A stretch of 20,000 nt of DNA. Origin: an uncultured virus (IMG/VR IMGVR_UViG_3300038441_002670) (taxonomy: Duplodnaviria > Heunggongvirae > Uroviricota > Caudoviricetes). The notes beneath the pieces are model-generated. The model saw only the letters and a list, made by a program, of their open reading frames with translations, was not told the DNA's origin and searched no databases. Positions within the stretch are counted from its first letter, which is position 1; each line of letters opens with the position of its first letter. This document shows positions 1 to 19,469 of the stretch, one piece after another. Position numbers and translations under genes: made by a program. The stretch lies in the IMG/VR virus record IMGVR_UViG_3300038441_002670. One strand, written 5' to 3'.

Positions 1-546
1 CTCAAGATTGCCGAGTCTCAAATTGCATCGCGTACAGAGGAGCCCGCGTACGACACCTGTGGTGTGATCATGATCAACCGCAAGAGATCTGGTGTATTCG
101 GGACGTCCACAAATCGCACAGGCACCACCTTGGGCATTGAAGAGTGTTTCATAGGCCTCTAGCGTGATAGCAAATCTGCGGCGTAGCCAACCCTGCCGCT
201 TTATACGCTCTGTGCGCTCTGGGTCGCGTTCGTCCCGTTGCTGTCGTAGCTTTTTTACACAATCCCGGCATTGCCCTCGATGTTTCCCGGTTTTCTTGTC
301 AAAAAAGAAGACTTCCCATGGCAGCATCGTTTGGCACGAATTACATAGCCGCTTGGTGCCATCTTCAGAAATAGGGATAAAAGGCCACTTCACGACGTGA
401 GGATCGCCATGACGTTTCCAACGGTAGTAGTGTTTCTGACAATAACCAAAAGAAGCCCATGGCGTAGAACAGCCATCAACAAGACACGGCGCACCAGTCT
501 TCGGTCGGTTTGCGGGAGGTGGTGTGATAAACTTAGAGATAGCCAT
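1..546 (-). CDS. Recombination endonuclease VII-family (His-Me/HNH) nuclease with N-terminal Zn-binding domains, homing-endonuclease-like; 3' end outside window
   Basis: Not in the ORF track because no stop lies in the window. Manual translation from ATG 546: MAISKFITPPPANRPKTGAPCLVDGC...GYCQKHYYRWKRHGDP...CNSC...CRDC...FAITLEAYETLFNAQGGACAICGRPEYTRSLAVDHDHTTGVVRGLLCTRCNLRLGNLE. CxxC...VDHDH..G.VRGLLC..CN is the Endo VII signature. AGGAG RBS at 557-561. Confidence 0.9.
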   Translation of the reverse strand, partial: MAISKFITPPPANRPKTGAPCLVDGCSTPWASFGYCQKHYYRWKRHGDPHVVKWPFIPISEDGTKRLCNSCQTMLPWEVFFFDKKTGKHRGQCRDCVKKLRQQRDERDPERTERIKRQGWLRRRFAITLEAYETLFNAQGGACAICGRPEYTRSLAVDHDHTTGVVRGLLCTRCNLRLGNLE

Positions 547-623
547 GGCACCTGTGCTCCTATCACAGCGTGAAATGGTTAGAGTCCTAGCAGTGTGTCG
601 AGCACTACTAGGACTTGTTTTTT
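540..623 (+). ncRNA. Candidate cis-antisense RNA to the Endo VII leader
   Basis: Plus-strand extended -10 TGaTAAACT at 525-533 inside the start of the CDS. The hairpin at 583-615 is followed by TGTTTTTTG, which is terminator-like on the + strand. Anti-SD CTCCT is exposed in a loop. Transcription is inferred only. Confidence 0.35.
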
Positions 624-641
624 GTAGCCTACAGTATAACA
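541..641 (-). promoter_or_regulatory. Extended -10 promoter plus structured two-hairpin leader of the Endo VII gene
   Basis: TGtTATACT at 641-633 (minus). A 13-bp stem AGTCCTAGTAGTG/CACTGCTAGGACT with 7-nt loop CTCGACA spans 583-615. A second hairpin (541-580) puts AGGAG in its loop and pairs the ATG. Confidence 0.6.
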
Positions 642-722
642 TATTTTAGCACCACATAAGAATAAAAATACAAAAATTTCAAATAGTTATGCGTCCCTGG
701 GTGGGTTCATCGTGCCCTCCTC

Positions 723-914
723 TCAGGCATGGGTCTGGTGATACTGGTGGCAGTAGGGACAGCGGTATACCTTCGCCTTCCTGGGCTTGTGCCGCTGCTG
801 CTGCTGCGCCTGGAGGACGCGATGCGCCGCCTGGGCGCTCGGGTAGGCGATCTTGCCCGCGCACCCGCTCGTGGGATCAGTCGGGAGCGCGTCGGGGGAG
901 GCCGTGAGTCTCAT
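723..914 (-). CDS. Small phage-type Zn-finger protein (63 aa)
   Basis: MRLTASPDAL...CAGKIAYPSAQAA...VYRCPYCHQYHQTHA, with C...CxxC..H ligands. AGGAG RBS at 923-927. Confidence 0.7.
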   Translation of the reverse strand: MRLTASPDALPTDPTSGCAGKIAYPSAQAAHRVLQAQQQQRHKPRKAKVYRCPYCHQYHQTHA

Positions 915-927
915 GAGAAGGGCTCCT

Positions 928-1167
928 CTAGAAGCCGAGGGGGAGTTGGCGCGGGTCCGCGTCTTCCGTGCTCGGTGCGTCCTGGCAGCGGTGACAGACC
1001 GTGATGCCGGGCCACGCATAGGGCTGGACCCGTGCCCATTCCGCCTCGGTGACGCTGGTACAGGCGGCCTTGGGGCCACGGCCGAACGCACAGAGCCAGG
1101 TGAGGTCGCGGCCCAGGAGCGTCTGGACCCGGGTGCGGGCGCGGTGGGAGGCGAGCGCGATGTTCAT
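928..1167 (-). CDS. Hypothetical Cys-containing protein (79 aa)
   Basis: MNIALASHRARTR...WLC...TVCHRC...QLPLGF. GGAGG RBS and ATGA overlap with the upstream ORF stop (1164-1167). Confidence 0.65.
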   Translation of the reverse strand: MNIALASHRARTRVQTLLGRDLTWLCAFGRGPKAACTSVTEAEWARVQPYAWPGITVCHRCQDAPSTEDADPRQLPLGF

Positions 1168-1520
1168 GATGCGGCCTCCTTCGCGTCTTGGGGGTGGCGT
1201 TCCCACACGACCCCGCCGGACGCCGCGCGATAGGGATTGGTCGAGCCCCACAGGATGCCGCAGTGGGGGCATTCCATCAGCGTCACCTGCTCCAAGTCGG
1301 GACTCTGCCGCAGCGTGGCCGTGGTTACGACCGCCCGGCAGGCATGGCACCGCGCCTGCCTCGGCTCGTGCGCTGGCACGATGGCCGTGTTCTCCGGGTT
1401 GCAGCGCTCGCATAGGCTGCCAGCCAGCGCCAGGGTTTCCTCCTGGCACGAGGGACACCGAAGCAGGACGGGCTCGGCGGGTGCGGCGGTCGGGATGTGG
1501 AGATGCGTGCGATGCTTCAT
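1164..1520 (-). CDS. Double zinc-ribbon hypothetical protein (118 aa)
   Basis: Four CxxC pairs (CPSC, CERC, CHAC, CPHC). ATGA-coupled to its neighbours at both ends. Confidence 0.7.
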   Translation of the reverse strand: MKHRTHLHIPTAAPAEPVLLRCPSCQEETLALAGSLCERCNPENTAIVPAHEPRQARCHACRAVVTTATLRQSPDLEQVTLMECPHCGILWGSTNPYRAASGGVVWERHPQDAKEAAS

Positions 1521-2062
1521 AGGGCGGGAATCTCCTGTTCGAGAAAACGCTGCTGCTGCGTATCCCACGTACAGAGCTTGAATCGCACCATGGGATACAG
1601 ACTTGCCGCCGTCTTCAGGCGATCCAAGGCCCGGCGGTGGTCGAACATGAACGTGTGTTTCACCTCGATCAGCGTGAGCCCATAGCTGCCAAAGCGACAC
1701 AGGCTCTCGGCAAAGGCCGGGCTCAGCGTGATGGGCTGGCTCGCGGGAAAGGTCAGGACGTCAGGGCCACGCGCCTGCGTGAGAAAGTCCGCGGTGTAGG
1801 ACATGCGAGGCGCGATCCAGAGGCGGAGGGGGCACGGCCACCACGCCTTGAGGTGCCCCTCCTGCTTGGCGACGTCAAGAACCGTGGCATAGCGCTGCTC
1901 CGTCTTGGAGACGTTGCGCCCCGGGGTGCGGGCGCGGGTGACCTCCACGTCCTGCGCCGTAGGGGCGGGTGCCGTCCGCACGGTCAGCGCCGGGTCGAGG
2001 GCCAGGCCGTGTCGCTGCGCATGGGCAATGGCGTCGGCTTCCGTCATGACAAGGCCGCGCAT
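1517..2062 (-). CDS. DUF1064-like phage PD-(D/E)xK nuclease
   Basis: Motifs SKTEQRY...SYTADFL...LIEVKH...LKTAASLYP..F match the phage DUF1064-type restriction-fold pattern. GGAGGAGG RBS before ATG 2062; alternative start at 2047. Confidence 0.7.
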   Translation of the reverse strand: MRGLVMTEADAIAHAQRHGLALDPALTVRTAPAPTAQDVEVTRARTPGRNVSKTEQRYATVLDVAKQEGHLKAWWPCPLRLWIAPRMSYTADFLTQARGPDVLTFPASQPITLSPAFAESLCRFGSYGLTLIEVKHTFMFDHRRALDRLKTAASLYPMVRFKLCTWDTQQQRFLEQEIPAL

Positions 2063-2397
2063 GGAGCCTCCTCCTGCGCGGCGGGGAGCACGCCGAGCAC
2101 GCGCCGACAACAGGCGGCCACGAGGATTTGCGGCTTCCCTGGCAGCACTAAGATGGGATGGAGTGTGCCACCGCAGCAGGCGATCAGGTTGCTCCCTGGG
2201 GCTGCCCACTGCGCCTCGCGGGCCTGGCGTGCCGCCGCCAGGAGGGCCGCGCGGTGGCGCGCACGGTACGCCCGCTTGTGGCGGTTCTGCTGGGTGGCGC
2301 ATTCGTCGCACAGGACGCTTCTGCCCCTCGGACGGGCGCACCGTACACAGCGCCCGGCGGCTTTGTGCTGCGCATACGTGGCTTTGTCGTGGGGCAT
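2044..2397 (-). CDS. Zn-finger hypothetical protein (117 aa)
   Basis: GRCVRC...LCDEC followed by a basic helix and two CC pairs. Its ATG directly follows the upstream TAG. Confidence 0.7.
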   Translation of the reverse strand: MPHDKATYAQHKAAGRCVRCARPRGRSVLCDECATQQNRHKRAYRARHRAALLAAARQAREAQWAAPGSNLIACCGGTLHPILVLPGKPQILVAACCRRVLGVLPAAQEEAPCAALS

Positions 2398-2613
2398 CTA
2401 CGGGGCCTCCTCTGGCTGGGGGAGCCGATACATGCCCTCACCACACCAGCGCAGCCGTCCGTCGTGCAGCATGCGGTAACAGGCGCGGTGCGTGGCCAGG
2501 AACGGCGCCTTGATGTGCTTGGCGATGACGCGGTAATGCTGCGGCCCCTCAGCCTGGCGGAGGTACGCGGTAATGCGCAGCGGGAGGGGCGTACGATGGC
2601 GAGTGGGGGTCAT
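2398..2613 (-). CDS. Small winged-helix-like protein, paralog 1 (71 aa)
   Basis: MTPTRHRTPLPLRITAYLRQAEGPQHYRVIAKHI...RACYRMLHDGRLRW..GMYRLP has three-helix plus wing patterning. ATGA overlap and G-rich RBS. Confidence 0.7.
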   Translation of the reverse strand: MTPTRHRTPLPLRITAYLRQAEGPQHYRVIAKHIKAPFLATHRACYRMLHDGRLRWCGEGMYRLPQPEEAP

Positions 2614-2822
2614 GTGTCCCCTCCCCCCTGATGGGGGAGGCAATACGTGCCGTCCTCCGACCACAGGAGCCGTCCCTCGTGCAGCATCCGCAGGCAGGCG
2701 CGATACGTCGCCAGGCGCGGGGCCTGAATGTGCTTGGCGATGACGCGGTAGTGCTGCGGGCTCTCGGTGCGGCGTAAGTAGGCAGCAATGCGCAAGGACA
2801 AGGGGATATGGGTCGCGGTCAT
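2610..2822 (-). CDS. Small winged-helix-like protein, paralog 2 (70 aa)
   Basis: MTATHIPLSLRIAAYLRRTESPQHYRVIAKHI...; 40/56 identical to paralog 1 over the core (manual count). AAGGAG RBS and ATGA overlap. Confidence 0.7.
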   Translation of the reverse strand: MTATHIPLSLRIAAYLRRTESPQHYRVIAKHIQAPRLATYRACLRMLHEGRLLWSEDGTYCLPHQGGGDT

Positions 2823-3746
2823 GGTGTCTCCTTCTCGGGATGCGGGCGCGGGCCTTCGCGCATGTTTCCCAGTTGCGCGGGGTCGCGGCCATAGTAGGGG
2901 TCCGCAATGCTCTTGTCGTGCAGGATGCGGCGGCCACCGCCGCGGTCGCGCTTGGCGTGGTCGGCATAGGTATGCTCTTTGCCCAGGCCGTGACAATGGG
3001 GTGGACTCGCCAGGCAGGCGTCGAGCGTGCCGGGGGGGAGGGACCCGAGCTGGCCCTCGGTGGTGCCGTAGGAGTGGCCCATTTTGCGTAACATTGTTCG
3101 CACGCGCGTATCAATGTCTCTGCTTGTCTGGTCGCGCGCATTGTCTCGAAGGGCACAGATACGGGCTTGTTCTTCTGTCAGCGTGCCACTATTGAGGCTG
3201 CCCTGAAACGGTGGACTTGCCACACAAGCGCTGACCTGCTCCCGCAGTATCTTGCCCAGTTCCCGCGAATCGCCTTGGAGCAGCGTGGGCGCCACGTACT
3301 GCGGCAGGTGCCCGTAGCGTCTTGCCCACAATTCCAGGTTGCCGGTGACGTGGTGCGCCGCGTGATCGCCCTGCTGGCTACACGCCTCGTGCTTGGCCGC
3401 ACTGCCGCCACAGTCGAAGCCGTGGGCGATGGCATGAAAGCGCAGCTCCAACTCGCACCCGATGAACCGATACCCGGCGAGGGCGGCATCGAGCCCGCCA
3501 AGTCCCGTGCCAGAAAAGCAATCGAGGACGGTGTCTCCCGGCTTCAGCCATCCTTCCTCAGCACAGTGCTTATAGATAGTTTGTATCAAACTACGAGAAA
3601 ATTTAGCTGGGTCCTCAGTGGGCGAAGGCTTCAGGACACAACAGCCCGGCCCAAGTGCTGGAATAGCACTTCTCCCAGACGTCCTGAAGCACTTCGCCCC
3701 TATCCTTCCTTGTACTTTGCATGGTTTTCCTCGCTGGCCGCCTCAT
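2819..3746 (-). pseudogene. Phage-type N4-C/N6-A DNA methyltransferase, split by a 7-nt insertion and apparently C-terminally truncated
   Basis: The N-terminal piece 3746-3615 ends ...CPEAFAH*. After TGAGGAC (3617-3611) another frame continues PAKFSRSLIQ...VLDCFSGTG (motif I)...GCELE...QGDSREL...ASPPF...YG....QLG...ASPPH...YG....QLGNM and then stops. The usual post-motif-IV region (e.g. LKPGG-type) is absent. Confidence 0.75.
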
Positions 3747-4030
3747 TTTCCTGTCCCTTCCTCGGCCGTCAGCGCAGCATGCCAGCGCGCCTCACACGCC
3801 GCACAGAGCGGGGCGGGCCAGGTCGTGGGGGGTGGGAAGCGGAGGAACCGCACCAGATCCCAGGGGTGCACGTCGTACACGCGGGCGAAGCGCACCAGGT
3901 CGTTGAGCGTGAGGGGGCGCTCGCGGCTCTCCTTGCGCGAGACCCACGTTTTGGAGCGCTTCAGCACCTCGGCCACGGCTGCTTGCTGCAACCCCCGGTC
4001 ATCCCGCACGGCCTGCAAGAGCAACTGCAT
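3743..4030 (-). CDS. XRE-family HTH regulator (Cro-like position, first gene of leftward operon)
   Basis: LQAVRDDRGLQQAAVAEVLKRSKTWVSRKESRERPLTLNDLVRFARVYDV fits the HTH_3 pattern. GGGAGG RBS. Confidence 0.85.
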   Translation of the reverse strand: MQLLLQAVRDDRGLQQAAVAEVLKRSKTWVSRKESRERPLTLNDLVRFARVYDVHPWDLVRFLRFPPPTTWPAPLCAACEARWHAALTAEEGTGK

Positions 4031-4058
4031 GAGCCCCTCCCTCCCTGCATAAGCATGA

Positions 4059-4184
4059 TTGCCACTGTGGCATCATAGCGGATTTTGCCCCAGAAGCAAA
4101 CATCAAGATCCCGCCATGTGACACACCGAACGCGTAAATGATTGCATTTGGTACATGGATGGCGTAGAGTTGCCAGAGCGGCAA
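4059..4184. promoter_or_regulatory. Three operator-like 15-bp palindromes TTGCC-N5-(G/A)GCA(A/T) between divergent XRE genes
   Basis: TTGCCACTGTGGCAT 4059-4073; TTGCCCCAGAAGCAA 4085-4099; TTGCCAGAGCGGCAA 4170-4184. Confidence 0.6.
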
Positions 4185-4222
4185 CTGTGTGTCTAACAGC
4201 AACTCTGGGGAGGCCCTCGTGC

Positions 4223-4585
4223 ATGGCGCACTGCTTTGAACGTCCCCTCCGCCCCGAGGAGGATTTGCCGTATTGCGGGCGCGTGGTCCGTGCCGCCCGT
4301 CACCTTTGCGGGCTGACCATGAAAGAGTTGAGTAGAGAGGCCCGCGTCTCGCGGGGACCCTTGAATCGCTTGGAACTCGGCCATTCGTTCCCCCAGCTGC
4401 CCCATTTCGTGTCGATCTGTCGAGAGCTCCACCTGTCGATGGATGCGCTGTTCGGCCTAGAGGCAGATCCCACGGAAAAGCAACTGTTTCTCGAATTGCG
4501 GAAGCGTCCTGGCCTGGCCCAGGCGTTCCTCGGCATGCTCGAAGTGGAGCATCCCCTTCGCGTACAGTCACGGAGCGCGTCGTAA
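4223..4585 (+). CDS. XRE-family HTH regulator (CI-like position; no peptidase domain)
   Basis: GRVVRAARHLCGLTMKELSREARVSRGPLNRLELGHSFPQLPHFVSICRELHLSMDALFG. GGGAGG RBS at 4208-4213. Divergent from 3743-4030. Confidence 0.85.
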   Translation: MAHCFERPLRPEEDLPYCGRVVRAARHLCGLTMKELSREARVSRGPLNRLELGHSFPQLPHFVSICRELHLSMDALFGLEADPTEKQLFLELRKRPGLAQAFLGMLEVEHPLRVQSRSAS

Positions 4586-4603: not shown

Positions 4604-4712
4604 CTGGTGTGCTATCGGGAAAGGGGCTAGCTATTCTGTAAATAAGGTGCTAATCTCGCTGCAACACAGACAAACCACGCTGAGGTTGGCCTTCCCCCTG
4701 GTGGAGGTGCGG

Positions 4713-4913
4713 ATGGGAAGATCTGTCTTGTTGCATGACGAGGACACCGGAGAGGGCACGGTCCCGTCTCCACGAACCCAACTCCATGACCTGGTCGAAA
4801 ACCTTACCGAGGAGGCCGTGCCTCCGGTGTTGGCCTTGTTGGCGCTCTGGCTGGAAGGGCCGCGCGCCCTGCTCCCCGTGGTGGGGCTGGCCTTTGTCGT
4901 CGGCACCTCTTAA
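4713..4913 (+). CDS. Hypothetical protein (66 aa), hydrophobic C-terminus
   Basis: GGAGGT RBS then ATG 4713. RTQLHDLVENLTEEAVPPVLALL. Confidence 0.55.
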   Translation: MGRSVLLHDEDTGEGTVPSPRTQLHDLVENLTEEAVPPVLALLALWLEGPRALLPVVGLAFVVGTS

Positions 4914-4986
4914 GCGATGTCTGGGGCGACGGGCCGGGAGGGATCGGCCTTTGTGCCTTCCCGCATGCGCTCGTGGAGAATGCCCT

Positions 4987-5115
4987 ATGGCTCTGTTCAA
5001 ACGTGCGCCCGCCGTGCGCATGCCCCCACGCTATACGTGGCTCTGGATCGCCTGGGTGATCGCGTTCGGGCTGCTCGGGCTGCTCTCGACCTGCCCTGGT
5101 GTGATTGTCTACTAA
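4987..5115 (+). CDS. Small single-TM protein (42 aa)
   Basis: MALFKRAPAVRMPPRYTWLWIAWVIAFGLLGLLSTCPGVIVY. GGAG RBS. Confidence 0.5.
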   Translation: MALFKRAPAVRMPPRYTWLWIAWVIAFGLLGLLSTCPGVIVY

Positions 5116-5133
5116 CCTGTACGGAGGTCTGCG

Positions 5134-5355
5134 ATGGCCCTGTTCCCCGCGTCGGCAAGCCCGTCCGCCCTGGCCGTCCTCGGCGTCGTGGTGCTCCTGC
5201 CCCTCACCCTTGCCGCGTGGGGCATTGGCCTTGCCGCGCTCTGGCTCTGTGACCGCGTGTGCTGGCCGCTGTCGCCACCTGCCGCGCCGCTCGTGCCAGA
5301 CGTGGACACCGAGACGGAGTATGGTTGGGCACAGTCGTCTCCCACTGAGCGCTAG
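5134..5355 (+). CDS. Small membrane protein (73 aa)
   Basis: GGAGG RBS. Long hydrophobic stretch ALAVLGVVVLLPLTLAAWGIGLAALWL. Confidence 0.6.
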   Translation: MALFPASASPSALAVLGVVVLLPLTLAAWGIGLAALWLCDRVCWPLSPPAAPLVPDVDTETEYGWAQSSPTER

Positions 5356-5760: not shown

Positions 5761-5854
5761 CGGTCTCTCCGGTCTCTCCGCTCTTTCCCTTTCTATTTTA
5801 CTATGAGTAAATAACACTTCGCCTTTCGCATAAATCACTTCATGCATTTTTTAT

Positions 5855-5882: not shown

Positions 5883-5955
5883 CTGCTTAAACGTGGGAAA
5901 GTTCGTATCCTTTTCTCGTAGCTCACCGACACATCACTGTGGAAAGACGGGAGGG

Positions 5956-13370: not shown

Positions 13371-14059
13371 GACTCCGCACGGGGCTGGTCATTGGGGTGT
13401 TGGTTGCGACTCCGCTTCCTAGCAGTGCCCAGATACTCGGGACCGGAATTGTACCTGTTACCGAGGTCGGACCTCAACTCGGCCAAAATACAATAACTGC
13501 GGTGCAGAGTGTCATCACGGCGGCACAGACGACGCTCATCCAACTCAACCAGATCCTGGACCTCACTCCTGTGAAATCTCTGACTGCGGCGGACGGCATT
13601 CTCGAGGACATGGAACTCCTCTGCGACCTCATCAAGCAGACCGAGGCGATCAACACCGACCTCCAGAGCCTGGAGGCGCAGATGGCCGCGCTCCTCGATG
13701 TCCAGCAAGCCCCCCGGACCCGGCCAGACCTGCAACGCCGTATGGACGAACTGAAGCAGATGCGCCAGCAAGCCCGCGTGTATGCGATGCGGACGCAGAC
13801 CTTGATTAAGACGCTCCTGCGCACCGGGGATCACATGAAGGCTCTCCTCACGGACGTGACGAAGCTGGTGGGGAACCTTTCCGGACAGCAACGGTTGGCC
13901 GAGCTACAGACGACGATCCACAAAACGCTGGCCGTGCAGGCGGCGCAGGCGGCGGCCTGGCAGCGCATGGATACGCTCGACAAGATGAGCGATGTGCTCG
14001 TGGTCGAAAGTATCACGCTCATTGAACGCAGCCGCATGGACGGCTGGCCGCGCTGGTAG
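13367..14059 (+). CDS. trbJ: TrbJ/VirB5-like minor pilin
   Basis: Signal peptide, QNTITAVQS...QLNQI, Gln-rich coiled coils, GNLSGQQ. Directly upstream of trbL; AAGGAGG RBS. Confidence 0.75.
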   Translation: MRLRTGLVIGVLVATPLPSSAQILGTGIVPVTEVGPQLGQNTITAVQSVITAAQTTLIQLNQILDLTPVKSLTAADGILEDMELLCDLIKQTEAINTDLQSLEAQMAALLDVQQAPRTRPDLQRRMDELKQMRQQARVYAMRTQTLIKTLLRTGDHMKALLTDVTKLVGNLSGQQRLAELQTTIHKTLAVQAAQAAAWQRMDTLDKMSDVLVVESITLIERSRMDGWPRW

Positions 14060-14072
14060 CAAAGGAGCCCGT

Positions 14073-15014
14073 ATGCCGCTCACCGTCGAGTTGGTCGATA
14101 CGATCACCCAGGGCTTCCTGGGTGCCCTGGAGATGGGCGCCACGAGTTTGTCGCGCTTCGCCCTGCCGATCCTGGCGGTCTGTGCGACCATTAGTTTTTA
14201 CCGGGAGTATGGCGCCATGGTCATGCAAGGCGGGGCCGCGCTCGGGGATGCGCTGGCGAGTGTGGTGCTGATCTTTGTGGGCATTGGCGGCTACTACTGG
14301 TTTCTCGTCACCCTCATGCCGCTCTCCACCGCAGCGCTCGCCACCGTGGTCGAGTGGGGGCTCACGCCGGGCGGGGGGGCCCTCACGGCTGATCTTATCC
14401 GCAAGCCGTCGATTATCCTCGATGTCGGCTTTAAGGCTGCCGGGGGTATCGCGGAATTTGATACGTGGTTCAAAGCCATCAAGAGCACGGTGAAAATGGC
14501 GTCGAATCCTTCGGACCTCCTGACGTGGTGGTTTATCGTCCTGAGCTTTCTGGCCATTACCGCGCACCACATGATGATGCTCATTGAATATCAACTGGCG
14601 GTCATGTGTGCCGCCGTCCTCATTCCCTGGGGCGTCTGGCGCTCCACCGCCGGGGTGGCGGAGTTTGCCCTGGGTTGGCTCACGGGTGGCCTCATTCGTG
14701 CGCTCGTGGGGACGGCCATGGTGGGCATCGCCTTGCCGCTGTTCTCGCTCCTCCAGGTGGAAGACAAAGGGTTTTTTACCCTGTATGAAAACCTCGTGCT
14801 GGTGGGCGGGTCCTTTGTGTTTATGGTGCTCTGTCTCGTGATCCCCGCCCGGGCGGCGCGCATGGCGGGACAGGCCTCGCTGGGGCTCACCGGGAGCACG
14901 CTCATGTCAGGGGCGATGACCCTTGGCCGGTTTGCCACGATGGGCACCAACCTGATGCGTACAGGCGCGGGTGTCATCCGTGGCACCTCCTCACTGCTGG
15001 GAGGCCGAGCATGA
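14073..15014 (+). CDS. trbL: TrbL/VirB6 polytopic inner-membrane protein
   Basis: Multiple TMs, PSIILDVGFKAA, LIEYQL...LIPWG...AE, IPARAA. AAAGGAG RBS. Confidence 0.88.
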   Translation: MPLTVELVDTITQGFLGALEMGATSLSRFALPILAVCATISFYREYGAMVMQGGAALGDALASVVLIFVGIGGYYWFLVTLMPLSTAALATVVEWGLTPGGGALTADLIRKPSIILDVGFKAAGGIAEFDTWFKAIKSTVKMASNPSDLLTWWFIVLSFLAITAHHMMMLIEYQLAVMCAAVLIPWGVWRSTAGVAEFALGWLTGGLIRALVGTAMVGIALPLFSLLQVEDKGFFTLYENLVLVGGSFVFMVLCLVIPARAARMAGQASLGLTGSTLMSGAMTLGRFATMGTNLMRTGAGVIRGTSSLLGGRA

Positions 15015-15748
15015 GCGACCTCCAGACCACTACGAGCCAGCTCCCGTTGAACGGGCATGCCGTGCCTCCTGCGTGGCAGGGCGTACCCCTCGATACCTTG
15101 GAGCGTATGGAACTCGCCTACCAGGAAATCCAGCGCCGCGATGCGCAGGCGGAAGCCCGGGCGGCGCGCAAGGATCGCCTCGTGCATTTCCTCTGTGGCC
15201 TCCTGGCGGTCTTCGCGGGGCTCCTCGTGTGGATGGCGGTGGACAAGCAGCACATCAAGACGTTTGTCCAGACCGTGCAGGTGACACCGGAGGGCACGCT
15301 GGTGCAACTCGGCGTGCCGCAAAATCTCTACGACTACCAGCCGACCGAGGGGGCCTACCTGGACATGCTGGCGCAGTGGGTGCGCTGGACGCGCTGGCGC
15401 GGGGGCGATGAGCGCATGGCGCGGGTGCAGTGGGCGTGGGCCTATCGGCACGCCTGCGGGATGGCGCACAAACTGCTGAAGGCGGCGGAAGACCGGGAGA
15501 AGCCGTTTAAGCCATCAGGCAGGCGCGTGGCGGTGGAGGTCAAAAGCGTCACGAAGATTGCCGCGCCGGAGAGTTACCAGGTGCTGTGGGAGGAAACTGC
15601 CACGGAACCCAATGCGCCCGCGTCCAAGTCGCAACTCTGGACGGGGACGTATACCGTGGGACGTCGCACCCTGACCTCGATGGACGATGTGCTCGATAAT
15701 CGGCTGGGTATCTGTGTGGCGGCCTACGAAGCCTCTGCTCAGCCCTAG
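15011..15748 (+). CDS. trbF: TrbF/VirB8
   Basis: Single N-terminal TM, FVQTVQV, LAQWVRWTR, WAWAY, SYQVLWEE, NRLGICV. Confidence 0.9.
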   Translation: MSDLQTTTSQLPLNGHAVPPAWQGVPLDTLERMELAYQEIQRRDAQAEARAARKDRLVHFLCGLLAVFAGLLVWMAVDKQHIKTFVQTVQVTPEGTLVQLGVPQNLYDYQPTEGAYLDMLAQWVRWTRWRGGDERMARVQWAWAYRHACGMAHKLLKAAEDREKPFKPSGRRVAVEVKSVTKIAAPESYQVLWEETATEPNAPASKSQLWTGTYTVGRRTLTSMDDVLDNRLGICVAAYEASAQP

Positions 15749-15758
15749 GGAGGGTCCT

Positions 15759-16718
15759 ATGCGCTGCTGGTATTTGCTGCTCGTGGTGGGACTGCTCGGT
15801 GGTTGTCCGTCGCCAGAGCCCCCACCGCCACCCGTGCCGCCCCCAGCCGAGGACCTCTCGACCTGGACCGTGCCAGTGCTGGTGCAGCCCGAGCGCTCTG
15901 TCCCGCGTCCGCAGGCGGTGCGCCCTGCGACGCTCCCCGTCGGGGCCGCTGAGAAAGTGCTGGCCTACAAGCCGGGCGTGGTGGTCGAGGTGTCGGTCGC
16001 TCCAGGGGCGCCCCTCGATATCGTCTTCGAGGAAGGGGAGCAAGTGCGGCAGATTGTGGACGGCGATCGTGCCCCCGCCGCCGAGGGCCAGCATCGCCGC
16101 TGGGAGGTGAAAGAAGGCGCGGACGGCGCAGGCCCCACGCTGAGGCCGCACGTGTTTGTCACGACGACCGAGCCGGGCCTGGTGAACGGCCTGACGATTA
16201 CGACGACGCGGCGCACGTATCTCGTCACCTGCAAGAGCGTAGCGCACACCCCGGTTCGCGTGCTGCGCTGGCTCTATGCCCCAGACAGCCGTCCCCCGAC
16301 GCCAGAGGCGCCTACCGACGCGCCCGGGCTCCTGCCGCATCCCGAGCAGCCCATGCGCTACCACATCGGCTATCGCCTGGAGGCGCAGGGGCGCATGCCC
16401 GACTGGACCCCGCGTGGCCTGTTTGACGACGGCAAGAAAATGTACATCGTGTATCCCGAGGTGACCCTCTTTGGGACCGTGCCGCTCGTGCGGAAGGTGG
16501 GCCCCAATGGCCCCCAACTCATCAATGCCCGGCAGTACCTCAGCGTGGTCATTCTTGATGAACTCGCAGGGCGTTTGGAGCTTCGCGTGGGCCTGGGTGA
16601 GACCGCAGAGGTTGTGACGATCTCGCGCGGCAATTTACGGACCATTGACTGTCCCAGCCATCCTGAGTGTCCACAATGGCCAGCGGCGGCGGCGGTCCTG
16701 GCCGGGGGCACGCCATGA
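15759..16718 (+). CDS. trbG: TrbG/VirB9 outer-membrane core protein (lipoprotein signal)
   Basis: Lipobox LGGC, YKPG.V.EV..APG...DIVFEEGE, LTITTTRRTY, WTPRGLFDDGKKMYI. Confidence 0.92.
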   Translation: MRCWYLLLVVGLLGGCPSPEPPPPPVPPPAEDLSTWTVPVLVQPERSVPRPQAVRPATLPVGAAEKVLAYKPGVVVEVSVAPGAPLDIVFEEGEQVRQIVDGDRAPAAEGQHRRWEVKEGADGAGPTLRPHVFVTTTEPGLVNGLTITTTRRTYLVTCKSVAHTPVRVLRWLYAPDSRPPTPEAPTDAPGLLPHPEQPMRYHIGYRLEAQGRMPDWTPRGLFDDGKKMYIVYPEVTLFGTVPLVRKVGPNGPQLINARQYLSVVILDELAGRLELRVGLGETAEVVTISRGNLRTIDCPSHPECPQWPAAAAVLAGGTP

Positions 16719-17860
16719 ACCCGGCCACGTATACCCACACGGCGTCGGCCCCGCGCGTGGTGCACCTGCGGGCGGGTCGGCTCCTCCTCCTCGCCTTCCT
16801 CGTGCTGGCGCTCATGGCAGCGGTCGCGTTCTGGCTGGTGTCCCGACCGAAGCCGCCCTCCTCGCAGCCGCTGCCCGAGGCCACGACGACCAATCCCGCA
16901 TGGATGAAACAGGCGACCGCGTATCTCCCCGAGGACCCGTTCCAGGTCAAAGCGGCGGTCGCTGCGCCACCACCCACGCCGGATCGCAGCGAGGAGGTGC
17001 TCCACGCGCTCGCTGGGCTGCGCACCGAGTCGCAGGCGACGCGGGAGGCCCTGGCGAAGATGCAGCAAGACAGTCATGCGTTGCGGCAAGACGTCGAAGC
17101 GCTGAAGCAACGGCCCGCGCCGCTGCCCCCGCCACGCACCCCGCCACCGCCTCCAGCACCAGCGAAGACGCCCACTCCGCCCAGCAAGCCGGGGGGCATG
17201 CTCTTTATCACGCACGATCTCAAGGAAGTGCCACCGCCACCGGCCCGGCCCGAGTACACGCTGGCACCCGGGGCTACGAAACTACCCTGTATTATTGAAT
17301 CTGCCATGAATAGCGACGTACCCGGCTACTTTACGGCCAAGGTCACGGCCAATGTCTTCGACACCGCCACCGGTCGCCATCTCCTGGTCCCGCAGGGCTC
17401 GACCATCCTGGGCCATGACCAGACAGGGAGTCTTGTCTATGGCAATGAGCGCATGGATACCGTGAGTCTCAAGCTCGCGCTCCCCGATGGTCGGACGGTC
17501 GATCTGGGACGAGCCCCGGTGACGGATCAGCGAGGCATCGCCGGTGTGACCCAGCGGGTTTCTCAACACTACGGTAGATTACTTGCCGCTGTGCTGATTC
17601 AGGGCGCCCTGCGGGGTGGCGCAACTGCGGTGACCACGGCGGCGGCGGGGGCATCAGGGGCCAGTGCCATCGTGTCCGGGGTGGCGACGCAGGGCTCCCA
17701 GACAGGGACTACAGTTACCGGCCCCCTCCTAAGCACTCGCCCAACGATAGAGGTGGATAGCGGCTATCTCTGCCAGACGATTCTCCTAGAGCCGCTGCGG
17801 CTGCCCGCGATGTGGCAAGACGGCGAACCGCGTGAACCTGTGCAGACAAAGAAGAGGTGA
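16715..17860 (+). CDS. trbI: TrbI/VirB10
   Basis: N-terminal TM, Pro-rich linker, AMNSDVPG..TAKVTANVFDTATGRHLLVPQGSTILG, D..GIAG, RPTIEV..G. Confidence 0.93.
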   Translation: MNPATYTHTASAPRVVHLRAGRLLLLAFLVLALMAAVAFWLVSRPKPPSSQPLPEATTTNPAWMKQATAYLPEDPFQVKAAVAAPPPTPDRSEEVLHALAGLRTESQATREALAKMQQDSHALRQDVEALKQRPAPLPPPRTPPPPPAPAKTPTPPSKPGGMLFITHDLKEVPPPPARPEYTLAPGATKLPCIIESAMNSDVPGYFTAKVTANVFDTATGRHLLVPQGSTILGHDQTGSLVYGNERMDTVSLKLALPDGRTVDLGRAPVTDQRGIAGVTQRVSQHYGRLLAAVLIQGALRGGATAVTTAAAGASGASAIVSGVATQGSQTGTTVTGPLLSTRPTIEVDSGYLCQTILLEPLRLPAMWQDGEPREPVQTKKR

Positions 17861-17863
17861 ACC

Positions 17864-18235
17864 ATGACAAGCACTGACCGTGTAACGAAGCTCGAACGTG
17901 CCGCAGAGAAAGCGCGTAGAGAGAAAGCGAAGCTCGAAGAGATCGAGCGCCTGGCGAAAGAGAGCCGGGCGGCTCAGCGCAAGACGATCCTCCAGGCCGA
18001 GGCGGCGGTCCGGGAAGAGACCCGGAAGGCCACCAACAAACGCCGCTACTACGTGGGCTTTCTGGCGGAGGAAGCCGGGCTGTTTACGTGGAGCAACGCC
18101 GACCTTCAGAAAATCTTTCTGGCCGTCGCACGCCTGGGGGAGACGCCCAGTCCTGGGGCGGTCCTAGAGAGCCTGCTCCTCGATGTTCCTGCTGGCAGTG
18201 TCGGTATCACCTCAGAGGGTATGGCAACGCCATAG
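17864..18235 (+). CDS. TraD/MobS-like relaxosome accessory protein
   Basis: Coiled coil followed by RKATNKRRYYVGFLAEEAGL, resembling the R..RTR.LI.LG.LV.KAGL motif of the TraD/TraC accessory proteins of MobQ systems. Adjacent to oriT and relaxase. Confidence 0.7.
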   Translation: MTSTDRVTKLERAAEKARREKAKLEEIERLAKESRAAQRKTILQAEAAVREETRKATNKRRYYVGFLAEEAGLFTWSNADLQKIFLAVARLGETPSPGAVLESLLLDVPAGSVGITSEGMATP

Positions 18236-18250
18236 CCTTAACGCGCCAGG
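18216..18250 (+). other. Putative MobQ-type origin of transfer (oriT)
   Basis: AGGGTATGGC-AAC-GCCATAGCCT (10-bp arms, one mismatch, 3-nt loop) directly followed by TAACGCG^CC. Same architecture as the RSF1010 oriT (IR then TAAATGCG^CCCT). About 145 bp upstream of the relaxase. Confidence 0.65.
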
Positions 18251-18392
18251 TTTTCTTTTCCCACACGACCAAAGGGAGAGAACTCCGAACTCCGCTCCTA
18301 GAGACTTCTGAGGAATCTGACCGAAGGGAAGTGACGAAGAAGGGACCAGCGGTAGCGAAAGTTTGCATCCAATGGGGAGGAGGTAGGGCCTC

Positions 18393-19469
18393 GTGGTCCA
18401 TTTTTATATGCGCCGGGATGTCTACAAAAGTGGGGGACAGCAGGCGGTCGGACGGGTGGCCTACATCACCCGCGAACCTGTGCGCAGTCGGGCGGCAGAG
18501 CAGATCGCGTATGTCAGTGGCGCACGAGAAGATTGCGTCGTGAGTGCGAGCCTCAACCTGCCTACCTGGTGTGCGAACGATCCCTATGTCTACTTTGCGG
18601 CGGCGGAGAAACATGAGGGGGTCGGGTGGGTGGCCTTTGAGGAACTCAAGATAGGCCTCCCCGTCGAGTTGACGCATGAGCAAAACATCGCCCTCATCCG
18701 GGACATGGTGCACACGATTGCCGGGGAGCGTTTGCCCATCACCTACGCCTTTCATGCGCCACGGACGATGGATGGGAGCCAGGAACAACCGCATGTGCAT
18801 GTGATCTTCTCCCGGCGACAAACTGATGGGATTGACCGGAGTGCGGCGCAGCATTTTCGCAAATATAACGCGGCGCATCCTGAGCAGGGCGGTGCCCAGA
18901 AAGATCCCTTCTTTGCGGAGCGGCTCGTCCAGCGCCATCTGCGGGTGATGCTGACGGATGTGGTCAATCTCCGTCTGGAGCAGCAGGGCACAGTTGTGCG
19001 GGTAGACCCGCGCTCCTTGCGTGACCGGGGGATTGACCGTGCGCCGGAACCGAAGCTCTTTCCCAAAGAGAGTCGAGAGTACCGGGAGGAGCGCAAGGTC
19101 AGTGCCACAATGGCCGAGGTCCTCGCCATCCGCCAGACGCGCGCCACGCAGCCGCCCCGCGAGCAGAACAACGCCCGGCAGTATTGGGAACAGCGCAAGG
19201 GAGTGCTGGGCCTCACCCGCGACATGCCCCACGAGCAGAAGCTCGCCCAGGTGCTCCTGCGGCGCCATGGCACGATCGAGCGCGTGCCTGAGCGCTACCG
19301 CCCCCTCGTGGCACCGACCACGCACCAGGCCACTACGCGCACGACAGACTTGGTGCAGCAGCTCAAGCGGCTGACGCGACGACTCGCCCCGACACTGGAC
19401 GACAGTGCGACGCAGGGACGGCTCGCCATTCGGCTGCATGAGGAACGCGGGCAGGGGGTCAGTTGGTGA
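18393..19469 (+). CDS. mobA: MobQ-family (MobA/MobL) relaxase, no fused primase/helicase
   Basis: Motif I AVGRVAYITRE (Tyr), motif II FAAAEKHE...EELKIGLPVELT, motif III YAFHAP...QPHVHVIFSRR, plus VDPRSLRDRGIDR. GGAGGAGG RBS. Confidence 0.93.
   Translation: MVHFYMRRDVYKSGGQQAVGRVAYITREPVRSRAAEQIAYVSGAREDCVVSASLNLPTWCANDPYVYFAAAEKHEGVGWVAFEELKIGLPVELTHEQNIALIRDMVHTIAGERLPITYAFHAPRTMDGSQEQPHVHVIFSRRQTDGIDRSAAQHFRKYNAAHPEQGGAQKDPFFAERLVQRHLRVMLTDVVNLRLEQQGTVVRVDPRSLRDRGIDRAPEPKLFPKESREYREERKVSATMAEVLAIRQTRATQPPREQNNARQYWEQRKGVLGLTRDMPHEQKLAQVLLRRHGTIERVPERYRPLVAPTTHQATTRTTDLVQQLKRLTRRLAPTLDDSATQGRLAIRLHEERGQGVSW

What the first reader, a model, noticed from the sequence alone, without database searches (positions are those of the whole stretch)
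1..19469. Temperate-phage-like early module joined directly to a conjugation system
Seen: a cI/cro-like divergent XRE pair with operator-like sites heads a translationally coupled operon of Endo VII, DUF1064-like nuclease, MTase and Zn-finger ORFs. It lies within 2 kb of a T4SS-relaxase-oriT cluster, with no visible att site, integrase or IS between them and similar GC and RBS style. Established: these left-hand families are typical of prophage early/middle regions, and phages normally lack mating-pair systems. Inference: this may be a phage-conjugative hybrid, or a conjugative element that captured a phage regulatory/replication-accessory arm.
Basis: partly seen in the sequence, partly recalled or inferred. 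Interest (0 to 1): 0.8.

Follow-up and report, generated by a model that had tools for sequence, protein, structure and literature searches.

The report
Conjugation genes joined to a phage
A soil mobile element joins a phage-style genetic switch and early genes directly to a complete bacterial mating (conjugation) machine, and a related contig carries phage capsid-building genes too, so it may be a temperate phage able to spread both as a virus and by cell-to-cell mating.

Summary
A divergent XRE pair (3743-4030 minus, 4223-4585 plus) flanks three clustered TTGC-N7-GCAA sites. The minus-strand regulator heads a translationally coupled operon of nine genes down to 723 (MTase fragment, two wHTH paralogues, Cys/Zn proteins, a PD-(D/E)XK-like nuclease), with Endo VII next on the same strand. 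A Trb/VirB-type T4SS, coupling protein, oriT-like block and MobA/MobL relaxase start within 1.9 kb. "DUF1064-like" stayed unverified, and the MTase is only the first ~40% of its phage homologues.

The join is real: contig L002 (100% identity) and diverged relative L003 keep the synteny. The MTase gene is 78% nucleotide-identical to the early region of a siphovirus lineage in IMG/VR (G002, G003). G003 carries capsid, portal, terminase, primase and RecT on one 41-kb contig with a homologous relaxase, oriT-like block and TrbC-TrbI; a contig from another sample bridges the critical junction. Thirteen exact window proteins lie on a 76,569-nt contig, and a terminase 75% identical to G003's has a longest contig of that same length.

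Best reading (0.55): one composite element of a phage-conjugation hybrid lineage. Rivals: a conjugative element with a captured or decayed phage arm, or a tandem. No integrase was found. A 2025 review says no conjugative phage-plasmid is known.

The parts
1..546 (-). Endonuclease VII / HNH-type nuclease, last visible gene on the leftward strand; C-terminus cut by the window edge; low GC
   Evidence: PF02945 1.4e-19 to 1.9e-19; phrog_2633 1.4e-29. GC of 1-1000 is 0.544 against about 0.64-0.68 elsewhere. A 176-nt gap separates it from the previous stop.
723..914 (-). 63-aa C-terminal CxxC zinc-ribbon-like protein
   Evidence: phrog_15216 7.4e-05. Exact gene call in the protein collection, longest contig 76,569 nt.
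928..1167 (-). 79-aa protein of unknown function, 4-bp overlap with the upstream gene
   Evidence: Frame-specific GC3; junction; exact gene call, longest contig 76,569 nt.
1164..1520 (-). 118-aa multi-CxxC zinc-finger protein
   Evidence: Weak HypA/zinc-ribbon hits, all below cut-off; exact gene call, longest contig 76,569 nt.
1517..2062 (-).
   Evidence: 9-member family with no Pfam domain; invariant S-x-T-E, S-Y-x-x-D, E-V-K. No Pfam hit at E<=1. Model pLDDT 46. Residues encoded by 2044-1976 are 95.7% identical to L083:6866-7669, which hits VRR_NUC at 2.2e-05.
2044..2397 (-). 117-aa Cys-rich protein
   Evidence: GC3 frame; exact gene call, longest contig 76,569 nt; no family hit.
2398..2822 (-). 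Two tandem paralogous ~70-aa proteins (2398-2613 and 2610-2822). 'Winged-helix' is my reading by eye and no tool supports it.
   Evidence: 163-nt tandem duplication, 77% identity; 4-bp overlaps; exact gene calls; no Pfam hit.
2819..3589 (-). 5' fragment (256 aa) of a phage-type N6/N4 DNA methyltransferase gene; likely truncated
   Evidence: N6_N4_Mtase motif-I region 1.1e-06. 65% / 55% identity to residues 1-232 / 3-240 of the 643- and 588-aa MTases of L083 and L084. 78% nt identity over 490 nt, running ~118 nt upstream of the start.
3743..4030 (-). cro-like XRE regulator, first gene of the leftward operon
   Evidence: HTH_31 1.6e-10; 76% identical in L003; seen on one contig only, 76,569 nt.
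4031..4222 (.). Divergent control region with three TTGC-N7-GCAA operator-like sites (4059, 4085, 4170)
4223..4585 (+). cI-like XRE regulator (120 aa, no S24 peptidase domain) followed by a terminator-like hairpin at 4584-4599
   Evidence: HTH_3 3.8e-05; hairpin; 65% identical in L003.
4647..5355 (+). Three small ORFs (4647-4913, 4987-5115, 5134-5355); the last two look hydrophobic by eye; function unknown
   Evidence: Conserved in L003 at 63-73%; no family hits.
5842..6420 (+). Third XRE regulator, directly upstream of the transfer genes
   Evidence: HTH_31 1.8e-06; present in L002-L004. An XRE gene next to TraF recurs in L065 and L024.
6475..7089 (+). TraF-type S26 pilin-processing peptidase
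   Evidence: Peptidase_S26 2.4e-12; TraF_Ti 4.7e-20, below cut-off; found in 33 of 81 loci.
8128..9630 (+). Type IV coupling protein (TraG/VirD4)
   Evidence: PF02534 8.3e-67; 303 relatives, about 500 aa each.
9643..17860 (+). Mating-pair formation genes: TrbC, TrbD, TrbE/VirB4, orf12990, TrbJ-like, TrbL/VirB6, TrbF/VirB8, TrbG/VirB9, TrbI/VirB10. No TrbB/VirB11.
   Evidence: all NCBIfam hits below curated cut-offs; order conserved in L005, L034/35, L049, L067 and G003. No PF00437 in G001-G003.
18296..18364 (+). Conserved non-coding block upstream of mobA: oriT candidate
   Evidence: 90% over 70 nt to G003; 83% over 58 nt to G001 (E 0.001, inverted orientation). The overlapping reading frame is only 63% conserved.
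18393..19469 (+). MobA/MobL (MOBQ-like) relaxase
   Evidence: PF03389 6.3e-17; MobQ 1.6e-15, below cut-off; 49.6% identical to G003's.
19463..19999 (+). Secreted right-handed beta-helix (DUF1565/pectate-lyase-like) protein with a signal peptide; runs off the window
   Evidence: Weak Pel9A/DUF1565/PelN hits. 62% identical to the G003 gene next to mobA, which hits Beta_helix at 9.1e-20. The signal peptide is read by eye in both translations.

Best explanation
The window is 20 kb of a roughly 76.6-kb soil-metagenome contig. It belongs to a lineage in which a temperate, siphovirus-type phage genome with no visible integrase (phage-plasmid-like) and a complete Trb/VirB-type conjugation module are parts of one composite element.

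Shown:
- A divergent XRE pair with three clustered 15-bp operator-like sites sits between two arms.
- The leftward arm is a tightly coupled operon of phage-type DNA-processing genes. It shares mosaic, nucleotide-level homology with the early region of bona fide phage contigs.
- The rightward arm holds a monocistronic cI-like gene with its own terminator-like hairpin, three small ORFs and a third XRE gene. Then come TraF, the coupling protein, TrbC-TrbI, an oriT-like block, a MOBQ-like relaxase and a secreted beta-helix enzyme.

Inferred mechanism:
- The cI-like protein binds the TTGC-N7-GCAA sites and keeps the leftward early operon off during carriage.
- The cro-like protein is made first when repression lifts, and leads into the nucleases, including Endo VII, which resolves branched DNA before packaging.
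- The transfer operon is governed separately by the third XRE regulator. The element could therefore move by mating, without killing its host, while the lytic genes are silent.
- Virion genes lie elsewhere on the same molecule: terminase by contig fingerprint here; capsid, portal and terminase directly in relative G003.
For: Physical join of the two arms:
- L002 is 100% identical across window ~3851-10150, and L003 (coupling protein 91%) keeps the order with left-arm proteins at 56-76%.

Phage origin of the left arm:
- The MTase is 65% / 55% identical to those of IMG/VR contigs G002 / G003. Identity is 78% nt over 490 nt including upstream non-coding DNA, plus a 69-nt patch at 82-88%.
- G002 has tail fibre J, tape measure, major tail, connectors, scaffold, MCP and portal.

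Direct linkage in a relative (G003, 40,992 nt):
- It holds MCP (phrog_212, 9e-80), Mu-F, portal (1e-104), TerL (phrog_2, 2e-38), MTases, primase and RecT.
- It also holds beta-helix2 (62%), MobA (49.6%), TrbI/G/F/L/J/E/D/C (34-63%; orf12990 66%) and the oriT-like block at 90% nt.
- G002 and G003 are close kin (MCP 95%, TerL 87%), and G002 ends exactly where G003 continues into the transfer genes.

G003 junction:
- In non-source run X5, a 2573-nt contig with no differences spans MobA, beta-helix2 and beta-helix1.
- Per-contig depths are similar on both sides in 4 of 4 runs laid.

The window's own contig:
- 13 of 15 window proteins looked up are exact matches with a 76,569-nt longest contig.

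No site-specific recombination genes:
- No PF00589, PF00239 or PF00665 in G001-G003, and none in the window.

Third case:
- G001 (67 kb) has the T4SS, MobA and a weaker oriT-like match. Its primase is 67% and its RecT 43% identical to G003's. It also has tail-fibre-like genes.
Against: - No virion gene lies in the window itself.
Its distance and orientation are unknown.
- Only one contig (G003) directly joins virion genes to the T4SS. At the beta-helix1/beta-helix2 boundary, contigs of X3 and X4 stop at 11153, and loose ends at 11120 show an alternative neighbour, so it is a branch point between variants.
- Module order differs between the window and G003.
- Of 16 T4SS-relative loci with at least 3.6 kb upstream, 14 lack the left arm. 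In 10 upstream arms scanned by Pfam (90 ORFs) no virion gene appeared.
- The MTase looks truncated, a sign of decay.
- G001 has no recognisable terminase, portal or capsid at Pfam 1e-4 or PHROG 1e-5.
- No replication or partition gene was identified in the window, and no ParB in G001-G003.
- All records are partial, so a missing integrase is weak evidence.
- No function was tested.
Confidence: 0.55

Rival explanations
1. A conjugative plasmid or ICE that captured a phage regulatory/early arm by recombination. Any phage structural genes on the same contig are then a decaying remnant or an unrelated neighbour, and the element moves only by conjugation.
For: - The T4SS clade is large (116 metagenome stretches encode relatives, 80 kept) and mostly seen without this arm: 14 of 16 informative loci.
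- Relatives carry other swapped-in DNA-metabolism genes in the same position: ERF in L043, primase-helicase in L039, Bro-N in L065, a weak RepA-like hit in L047.
- The MTase is a 5' fragment of the phage gene and homology is patchy: 490, 196 and 69 nt.
- The Endo VII gene has foreign-looking GC.
- The review read says phage-plasmid-derived lineages that lost phage genes and gained oriTs are known.
Against: - Terminase P0168 shares the window contig's exact length.
- G003 has an apparently full head/packaging set contiguous with the T4SS.
- The left arm is a compact, coupled operon with intact ORFs and conserved operators, not debris.
Confidence: 0.25
2. Two independent elements lying side by side or nested: a prophage next to an ICE (a phage-ICE tandem formed by site-specific accretion), or a prophage integrated into a conjugative plasmid.
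For: - Phage-ICE tandems are reported in 612 cases across seven phyla (abstract of PMC13651849).
- Conjugative megaplasmids carrying prophages are described (PMC12934698, search listing and abstract start only).
- The G003 beta-helix1/beta-helix2 boundary is an assembly-graph branch point with an alternative neighbour in X3 and X4.
- Module order differs between the window and G003.
- IMG/VR labels G002 a provirus.
Against: - No tyrosine integrase, serine recombinase or rve transposase in G001-G003 or in the window.
- No tRNA or att-like repeats in the window.
- In the window, phage-homologous genes and the T4SS share one control region only 1.3-1.9 kb apart.
- The fetched left end of G002 is still tail-fibre-like, not host DNA.
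- Depths are equal across the G003 junction in 4 of 4 runs.
Confidence: 0.15
3. Metagenome assembly chimera joining a phage and a plasmid through shared sequence.
For: All data come from short-read metagenome assemblies. Phages and these elements share 69-490-nt patches at 75-88% identity that could mislead an assembler.
Against: - The window junction is reproduced at 100% in L002 and, diverged, in L003, from other metagenomes.
- The G003 junction is reproduced by a different assembler in a non-source sample, X5.
- Three diverged element types (window, G003, G001) each link the T4SS to phage-type modules.
Confidence: 0.03

Closest known systems
Phage-plasmids (P1, N15, SSU5 types). Nearest sequenced example by terminase: Pseudomonas juntendi plasmid p2463-1 (NZ_CP091089.1).
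   Same: Temperate tailed-phage gene sets with no integrase seen. Early region with RecT, HNH, MTase and nucleases. p2463-1 is circular, 65.6 kb, with ParA, and its TerL is 52% identical to G003's against about 35% for the other listed PLSDB hits.
   Different: p2463-1 is typed non-mobilizable and shows no T4SS or relaxase in the 50 kb displayed; it shares only TerL and a weak RecT match with G003 and the window. [quoted passage not shown] Here a full T4SS, coupling protein and relaxase are present.
IncP/Ti-type Trb (P-type, MPF-T) conjugation systems
   Same: Same families in the same order: TraF peptidase, TraG coupling protein, TrbC, D, E, J, L, F, G, I.
   Different: - Every NCBIfam hit is below its curated cut-off.
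- The best listed PLSDB TrbE matches are 34-35% identical, and all 2254 matching records are under 60%.
- No TrbB/VirB11 in the window or in G001-G003.
- The relaxase is MobA/MobL (MOBQ-like), not IncP TraI.
- The system is embedded beside phage genes.
Phage-ICE tandems (PMC13651849, abstract read)
   Same: A phage and a conjugation machine co-located and potentially co-transferred.
   Different: The abstract describes site-specific accretion driven by integrases and says 'Rather than a hybrid element'. Here no integrase or att repeat was found in the visible parts, and phage-homologous genes share a control region with the T4SS.
E. coli p1002-1, called a 'conjugative phage-plasmid' (bioRxiv 10.1101/2025.03.14.643293, passages read)
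   Same: One replicon with phage-plasmid and conjugative-plasmid gene sets.
   Different: It is described as a cointegrate of two recognisable parent plasmids in closely related isolates. Here at least three diverged members (window, G003, G001; T4SS proteins 34-66% identical) suggest an older association. No parental separate forms were identified.
SXT/R391 ICEs, with a lambda-cI-like SetR and lambda-Red-like recombination genes (recalled; no call)
   Same: A phage-type repressor and phage-type recombination genes inside a conjugative element.
   Different: As recalled, SXT has an integrase, an F-type T4SS and no virion genes. Here no integrase is seen, the T4SS is P-type, and a terminase is linked to the contig.

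Membership tests
P-type (Trb/VirB, MPF-T) conjugative T4SS | VirB4/TrbE ATPase | tested here: met
   NF010447 TrbE 5.7e-183 (below the curated cut-off) and PF03135 4.5e-06.
P-type (Trb/VirB, MPF-T) conjugative T4SS | Core channel: VirB6, VirB8, VirB9, VirB10 | tested here: met
   VirB8 1.6e-18, CagX 5.5e-30 and TrbI 6.1e-34 are above Pfam cut-offs. TrbL 3.8e-4 is below the Pfam cut-off; NCBIfam TrbL 1.1e-12.
P-type (Trb/VirB, MPF-T) conjugative T4SS | VirB11/TrbB traffic ATPase | tested here: not met
   No T2SSE hit among the 78 window ORFs, and no PF00437 in G001-G003 by six-frame search. It could lie outside the window.
P-type (Trb/VirB, MPF-T) conjugative T4SS | Pilin (TrbC/VirB2) with TraF maturation peptidase | tested here: inconclusive
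   TraF is clear (Peptidase_S26 2.4e-12; TraF_Ti 4.7e-20). The TrbC pilin hit, 4.6e-4, is below the cut-off.
Self-transmissible conjugative element | Relaxase, coupling protein and oriT together with the MPF genes | tested here: inconclusive
   Relaxase PF03389 6.3e-17 and coupling protein PF02534 8.3e-67 are met. The oriT is only a conserved 69-nt candidate. Transfer was not assayed.
Tailed temperate phage / phage-plasmid | Terminase, portal, major capsid and tail genes on the same molecule | tested here: inconclusive
   None in the window. Terminase P0168 shares the window contig's length of 76,569 nt. Relative G003 has MCP, portal, TerL and Mu-F on the T4SS contig; G002 supplies tail genes.
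Tailed temperate phage / phage-plasmid | Plasmid replication and partition functions, no integrase | tested here: inconclusive
   No integrase families in the window or G001-G003. No ParB in G001-G003. DUF3987 primase is present in G001 and G003. No rep or par gene was identified in the window.
Lambda-type cI/cro switch | Divergent HTH repressor pair with multiple operators in the shared intergenic region | tested here: met
   Binding was not tested.
Lambda-type cI/cro switch | Repressor with an S24 (LexA-like) autocleavage domain | tested here: not met
   The cI-like protein is 120 aa with only HTH hits at E<=1.
DUF1064 (PF06356) nuclease | Match to the family profile | tested here: not met
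   No Pfam hit at E<=1, and none precomputed for its 9 homologues. The fold could not be tested (pLDDT 46). That the invariant motif fits a PD-(D/E)XK nuclease is my reading, and the accession is recalled.
N6/N4 DNA methyltransferase | Complete catalytic domain | tested here: inconclusive
   Only the AdoMet motif-I region matches the profile (residues 15-55). SPPF/SPPH motifs are seen by eye. The ORF ends where the 588-643-aa homologues continue for about 350-400 residues.
Phage-ICE tandem / ICE | Integrase(s) and att repeats bounding the elements | tested here: not met
   None in the window or in G001-G003. All records are partial.
Anti-phage defence island | Match to a known defence system | tested here: not met
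   PADLOC gave only generic MTase motif-I and HTH hits for 19 proteins.

The most novel reading that the evidence does not exclude
A self-transmissible temperate phage. One replicon, conserved as a soil lineage (window contig, G002/G003, perhaps G001), encodes both a complete virion (terminase, portal, capsid, tail) and a complete conjugation machine (T4SS, coupling protein, relaxase, oriT). They sit either side of a cI/cro-type switch, so the element can choose between spreading by lysis and spreading by mating.
Probability: 0.35. Interest if true: 0.9.

Novelty: new variant of a known kind. Interest (0 to 1): 0.8.

Why it matters
Phages and conjugative elements are treated as the two separate engines of horizontal gene transfer. 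They trade off differently: lysis gives many progeny but kills the host and is limited by receptor range and capsid size, whereas mating is slow but harmless and has a broad range. [quoted passage not shown]

A natural lineage combining both routes would show that the two strategies can coexist in one genome. It would raise a testable question: how does one switch allocate between them? It would also matter for tools that sort contigs into 'virus' or 'plasmid'. IMG/VR lists G001 and G003 as viruses although both carry a T4SS.

Even under the more ordinary reading, the locus is a clear case of nucleotide-level gene flow between phages and conjugative elements in uncultured soil bacteria.

Tried and rejected
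- Whole genome: none is held. The window's flanks could not be read.
- Megablast of the whole window against PLSDB and INPHARED: no match.
- Genome contigs: one distant relative only (27%, a Fimbriiglobus MAG).
- NCBI names of coupling-protein relatives gave only 'Candidatus ...' labels. The host is unresolved.
- Sigma-70-like promoters: 3 found against 3.5 expected. Terminator-like sites: 15 against 11.0. Neither exceeds chance. Only the hairpin at 4584-4599 is used, as a positional hint.
- TTGC-N7-GCAA at up to 1 mismatch is not enriched window-wide (7 against 9.0). Only the clustering and conservation are used.
- Nuclease query in IMG/VR: none. Pfam at E<=1: no DUF1064 or VRR-NUC. The AlphaFold model was too poor for a fold search, so none was run.
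- IMG/VR scans with the coupling protein, TrbE, relaxase, primase and the oriT core found only G001 and G003, plus an unrelated 10-kb contig, L103, with a 32% relaxase.
- The three other terminase-lineage IMG/VR contigs (L094, L095, L097) break within about 5 kb on the early-gene side of TerL or inside it (L094), so they say nothing about a T4SS.
- MTase fragment against INPHARED proteins: no match.
- Tetranucleotide composition is alike for the phage-like and T4SS parts (0.56-0.88) but also for the T4SS-free phage G004, so it does not discriminate.
- Protein atlas: the G001 1290-aa protein scored 0.83 or less, which is uninformative. The 702-aa protein resembles viral tail-fibre/baseplate clusters at 0.92, a lead only.
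- Rfam: no family. tRNA: none. PADLOC: no defence system.
- Earlier scan notes: nothing in three look-ups.
- Read laying: the joint 12532->4490 and several loose ends rest on ~20-nt matches and were ignored. Stretches without a listed piece in X3, X4 or X6 are not taken as absence.
- 27 of 788 PLSDB records with a terminase homologue are typed conjugative. I did not examine them.

Full report
**1. What is in the window**

Gene calls come from frame-specific GC3, Pfam on 78 ORFs, PHROGs and NCBIfam. Independent support is strong: of the 15 window proteins I looked up, 14 exist as exact gene calls in the protein collection.

On the minus strand, nine genes run from 4030 to 723:
- a cro-like XRE regulator (3743-4030; HTH_31, 1.6e-10);
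- after a 153-nt gap, an MTase ORF (2819-3589);
- two tandem ~70-aa paralogues (2398-2822), made by a 163-nt duplication at 77% identity;
- a Cys-rich ORF (2044-2397);
- a putative nuclease (1517-2062);
- a multi-CxxC protein (1164-1520);
- a 79-aa ORF (928-1167);
- a zinc-ribbon-like ORF (723-914).

After a 176-nt gap comes Endo VII (<1-546; PF02945, 1.9e-19; phrog_2633, 1.4e-29).

The junctions show four 4-bp overlaps, one abutting pair and one 19-nt overlap. Each downstream start follows a GGAGG-type RBS.

On the plus strand lie:
- a 120-aa cI-like XRE protein (4223-4585), with a terminator-like hairpin at its stop;
- three small ORFs (4647-5355);
- a third XRE gene (5842-6420);
- TraF (6475-7089);
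- two small conserved ORFs;
- the coupling protein (8128-9630; PF02534, 8.3e-67);
- TrbC, D, E, J-like, L, F, G, I (9643-17860);
- a 123-aa ORF;
- a MobA/MobL relaxase (18393-19469; 6.3e-17);
- a beta-helix gene with a signal peptide that runs off the window.

No TrbB/VirB11, integrase, transposase, tRNA, Rfam family or att-like repeat was found.

**2. The control region**

The 190-nt region between the divergent XRE genes holds both exact TTGC-N7-GCAA matches of the whole 20 kb (4085, 4170) and a one-mismatch site (4059). At up to one mismatch the motif is not enriched window-wide (7 found, 9.0 expected). The evidence is therefore the clustering: by my own binomial estimate, 3 of 7 matches in 1% of the sequence has a probability of about 3e-5, judged post hoc.

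Conservation adds to this. L003 has its two exact sites in the equivalent region. In the alignment the arms are kept while the spacers differ. This fits operators of a dimeric HTH protein. Binding is inferred, not shown.

**3. The join is real**

The coupling protein has 303 relatives at E<=1e-20. Of the metagenome stretches that matched, 116 encode a relative, and the best 80 were kept as loci. I mapped all window proteins onto the 81 loci by tblastn.
- L002 is 100% identical over window ~3851-10150.
- L003 (coupling protein 91%) keeps the order MTase, cro-like, cI-like, small ORFs, third XRE, TraF, T4SS, with left-arm proteins at 56-76%.
- Both come from metagenome records other than the window's own contig. 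Misassembly at 4600-6500 is therefore excluded for practical purposes.

Against a universal link: of 16 loci with at least 3.6 kb upstream of the coupling-protein gene, only these 2 carry the left arm. The conserved block is TraF, a variable stretch, then coupling protein and Trb genes. The variable arm elsewhere holds XRE genes, an ERF recombinase (L043), a primase-helicase (L039), a Bro-N protein (L065), a weak RepA-like hit (L047), or the relaxase (90 ORFs from 10 loci; no virion gene seen).

**4. The left arm is phage DNA**

The MTase query found three IMG/VR contigs: G002 (65%), G003 (55%) and G004.

At nucleotide level the window matches G002 at 78% over 490 nt (window 3219-3707, about 118 nt of it upstream of the start) and at 78% over 196 nt. 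A 69-nt patch (1977-2045) matches at 82-88%.

That patch encodes the first 23 residues of the window's nuclease. They are 95.7% identical to the N-terminus of a different nuclease in the phage contigs, one that hits VRR_NUC at 2.2e-05.

The phage MTases are 588-643 aa. The window's ORF covers only their first 232-240 residues and then diverges into the duplicated small genes, so it is probably a truncated remnant (inference).

G002 is a full siphovirus-type genome piece: tail fibre J (9e-88), tape measure, major tail, connectors, scaffold, MCP, portal and TerL.

**5. A relative joins virion genes and the T4SS on one contig**

Fetching the rest of G003 (40,992 nt) gave two sets of genes.
- Phage genes: MCP (phrog_212, 9.4e-80), Mu-F (3.1e-47), portal (1.2e-104), TerL (phrog_2, 2.2e-38), two MTases, DUF3987 primase, RecT and a beta-helix gene.
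- Then, convergently, the transfer genes: a second beta-helix gene (62% to the window's right-end ORF), MobA (49.6%), an orf17864 homologue (48%), TrbI (47%), TrbG (57.5%), TrbF (39%), TrbL (45%), TrbJ (63%), orf12990 (66%), TrbE (48%), TrbD and TrbC (34%), up to the contig end.

This explains why a PF02534 search of G003 found nothing: the contig ends before the coupling-protein gene.

G002 and G003 are close kin (MCP 95%, portal 93% over the stretch held in L091, TerL 87%). G002 ends in the first beta-helix gene, exactly where G003 continues.

A 69-nt non-coding block just upstream of mobA (window 18296-18364) is 90% identical in G003 and 83% identical over 58 nt in G001 (E 0.001; inverted there). 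The overlapping reading frame is only 63% conserved. This is the oriT candidate.

**6. Is the G003 junction an artefact?**

Twelve rhizosphere runs hold at least half of the junction's sampled words. I laid the contigs of four non-source runs on the stretch.
- In X5, a 2573-nt contig with no differences covers 9324-11896 of L099. That spans MobA, beta-helix2 (ends ~11126) and beta-helix1 (starts ~11171).
- In X3 and X4, contigs stop at 11153, and loose ends at 11120 show another neighbour.
- Per-contig depths are alike on both sides in all four runs (X3 18-21; X4 7-13; X5 5.5-7.6; X6 15-23).

So the junction exists in an independent assembly, but it is also a branch point between variants.

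**7. The window's own contig**

Exact look-ups put 13 of 15 window proteins on a 76,569-nt longest contig. The cro-like protein is seen on that contig only.

An exact length match by chance among the 120 listed hits is very unlikely (my estimate: below 1e-2). I therefore take it that the window's contig also encodes this terminase. I could not read that DNA, so its position and neighbours are unknown.

A 24,079-nt contig carries close variants of the nuclease, TrbF and TrbD.

**8. Tandem or hybrid?**

No tyrosine integrase, serine recombinase or rve transposase was found in G001-G003 by six-frame search, and none in the window. ParB was found only in G004. The fetched left end of G002 is still tail-fibre-like. 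All these records are partial, so this is weak negative evidence.

G001 (67 kb, listed as viral) has the T4SS and MobA, a primase 67% and a RecT 43% identical to G003's, and a block of Laminin_G_3, beta-helix and Peptidase_S74 tail-fibre-like genes. It has no recognisable terminase, portal or capsid.

**9. Comparison with what is known**
- All 2254 PLSDB records matching TrbE are under 60% identical; the best listed are 34-35%.
- The nearest deposited phage terminases are 35-40% identical.
- The best plasmid terminase (52%) is on P. juntendi p2463-1, a circular 65.6-kb phage-plasmid. It is typed non-mobilizable and shares little else.

Literature:
- A preprint (10.1101/2025.11.07.687105, passages read) finds T4SS domains only sporadically in putative phage-plasmids.
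- Another preprint (10.1101/2025.03.14.643293, passages read) describes one E. coli cointegrate as a 'conjugative phage-plasmid'.
- A third (10.64898/2025.12.20.690322, passage read; its supplementary table was not seen) mentions such hybrids in passing.
- PMC13651849 (abstract read) describes phage-ICE tandems made by integrase-driven accretion.
- PMC7969092 (passages read) screened phages for conjugation genes but, in the passages I saw, reports no conjugative phage-plasmid.
- My searches for the phrases 'conjugative phage-plasmid', 'conjugative prophage', 'phage-conjugative' and 'conjugative phage' returned 36 papers. None of the 20 listed describes a phage lineage with a complete T4SS.

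**10. Verdict**

The left arm is demonstrably phage-derived. The link to the T4SS recurs at two evolutionary depths. Virion genes are tied to the same lineage directly in G003, and to the window's own contig by fingerprint.

I favour one composite phage-conjugation element (0.55). The alternatives are a conjugative element with a captured or decaying phage arm (0.25), a tandem or nested pair (0.15) and a chimera (0.03). Function is untested throughout.

Noticed in passing
window:2398-2822: Two tandem ~70-aa paralogous genes made by a 163-nt duplication (77% identity). They sit exactly where the phage MTase homology breaks off, as if they replaced the 3' 60% of that gene. No family hit.
   Followed up: partly
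window:1976-2045; L083:7267-7336; L084:9237-9306: A 69-nt patch (82-88% nt; 23 residues at 95.7%) forms the N-terminus of two different nucleases: the window's PD-(D/E)XK-like protein and a VRR-NUC protein in the phage contigs. It could be a shared docking peptide or a recombination linker between modules.
   Followed up: partly
window:1-642: The Endo VII gene has much lower GC (about 0.50-0.54) and low GC3 compared with the rest of the operon (0.64-0.69), suggesting recent acquisition or a homing-endonuclease-like history.
   Followed up: no
window:6475-17860; G001; G003: This whole T4SS clade seems to lack a VirB11/TrbB ATPase: none in the window, and none in 67 kb of G001 or 41 kb of G003.
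   Followed up: partly
window:19463-19999; L099:10161-11126: A secreted DUF1565/pectate-lyase-like beta-helix protein is conserved directly downstream of the relaxase in the window and in G003 (62%). It may be a polysaccharide-degrading aid to mating.
   Followed up: partly
G001 (L082, L086-L088): A 67-kb contig listed as a complete virus carries a full T4SS, relaxase, primase and RecT, plus large Laminin_G_3 / beta-helix / Peptidase_S74 tail-fibre-like proteins. No recognisable terminase, portal or capsid was found.
   Followed up: partly
relatives of G003 TerL (P0183, P0189, P0193, P0199, P0206, P0233, P0234, P0263): Several terminase relatives are 562-854 aa and carry PF14528 or PF13403 domains. 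My reading (from recall) is that these are intein or homing-endonuclease insertions in the terminase gene.
   Followed up: no
L083:10001-11932; L084:9977-11743: The full-length phage MTases contain several repeats of a '...DPAQLGNLPAGS..A..SSPPY' module between the AdoMet motif and the C-terminal part of the fold. This is an unusual repeated-catalytic-motif architecture.
   Followed up: no
L092:14076-14849: G002 has its own Endo VII/HNH gene (phrog_1035, 2.5e-29) inserted on the opposite strand inside the tail gene block. It is not detectably similar to the window's Endo VII.
   Followed up: no
window:5356-5841 and 7790-8127: Two long gaps (486 and 338 nt) lie upstream of the third XRE gene and of the coupling-protein gene. 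The ORFs at 5380-5728 are not conserved in L003. These may be regulatory regions.
   Followed up: no
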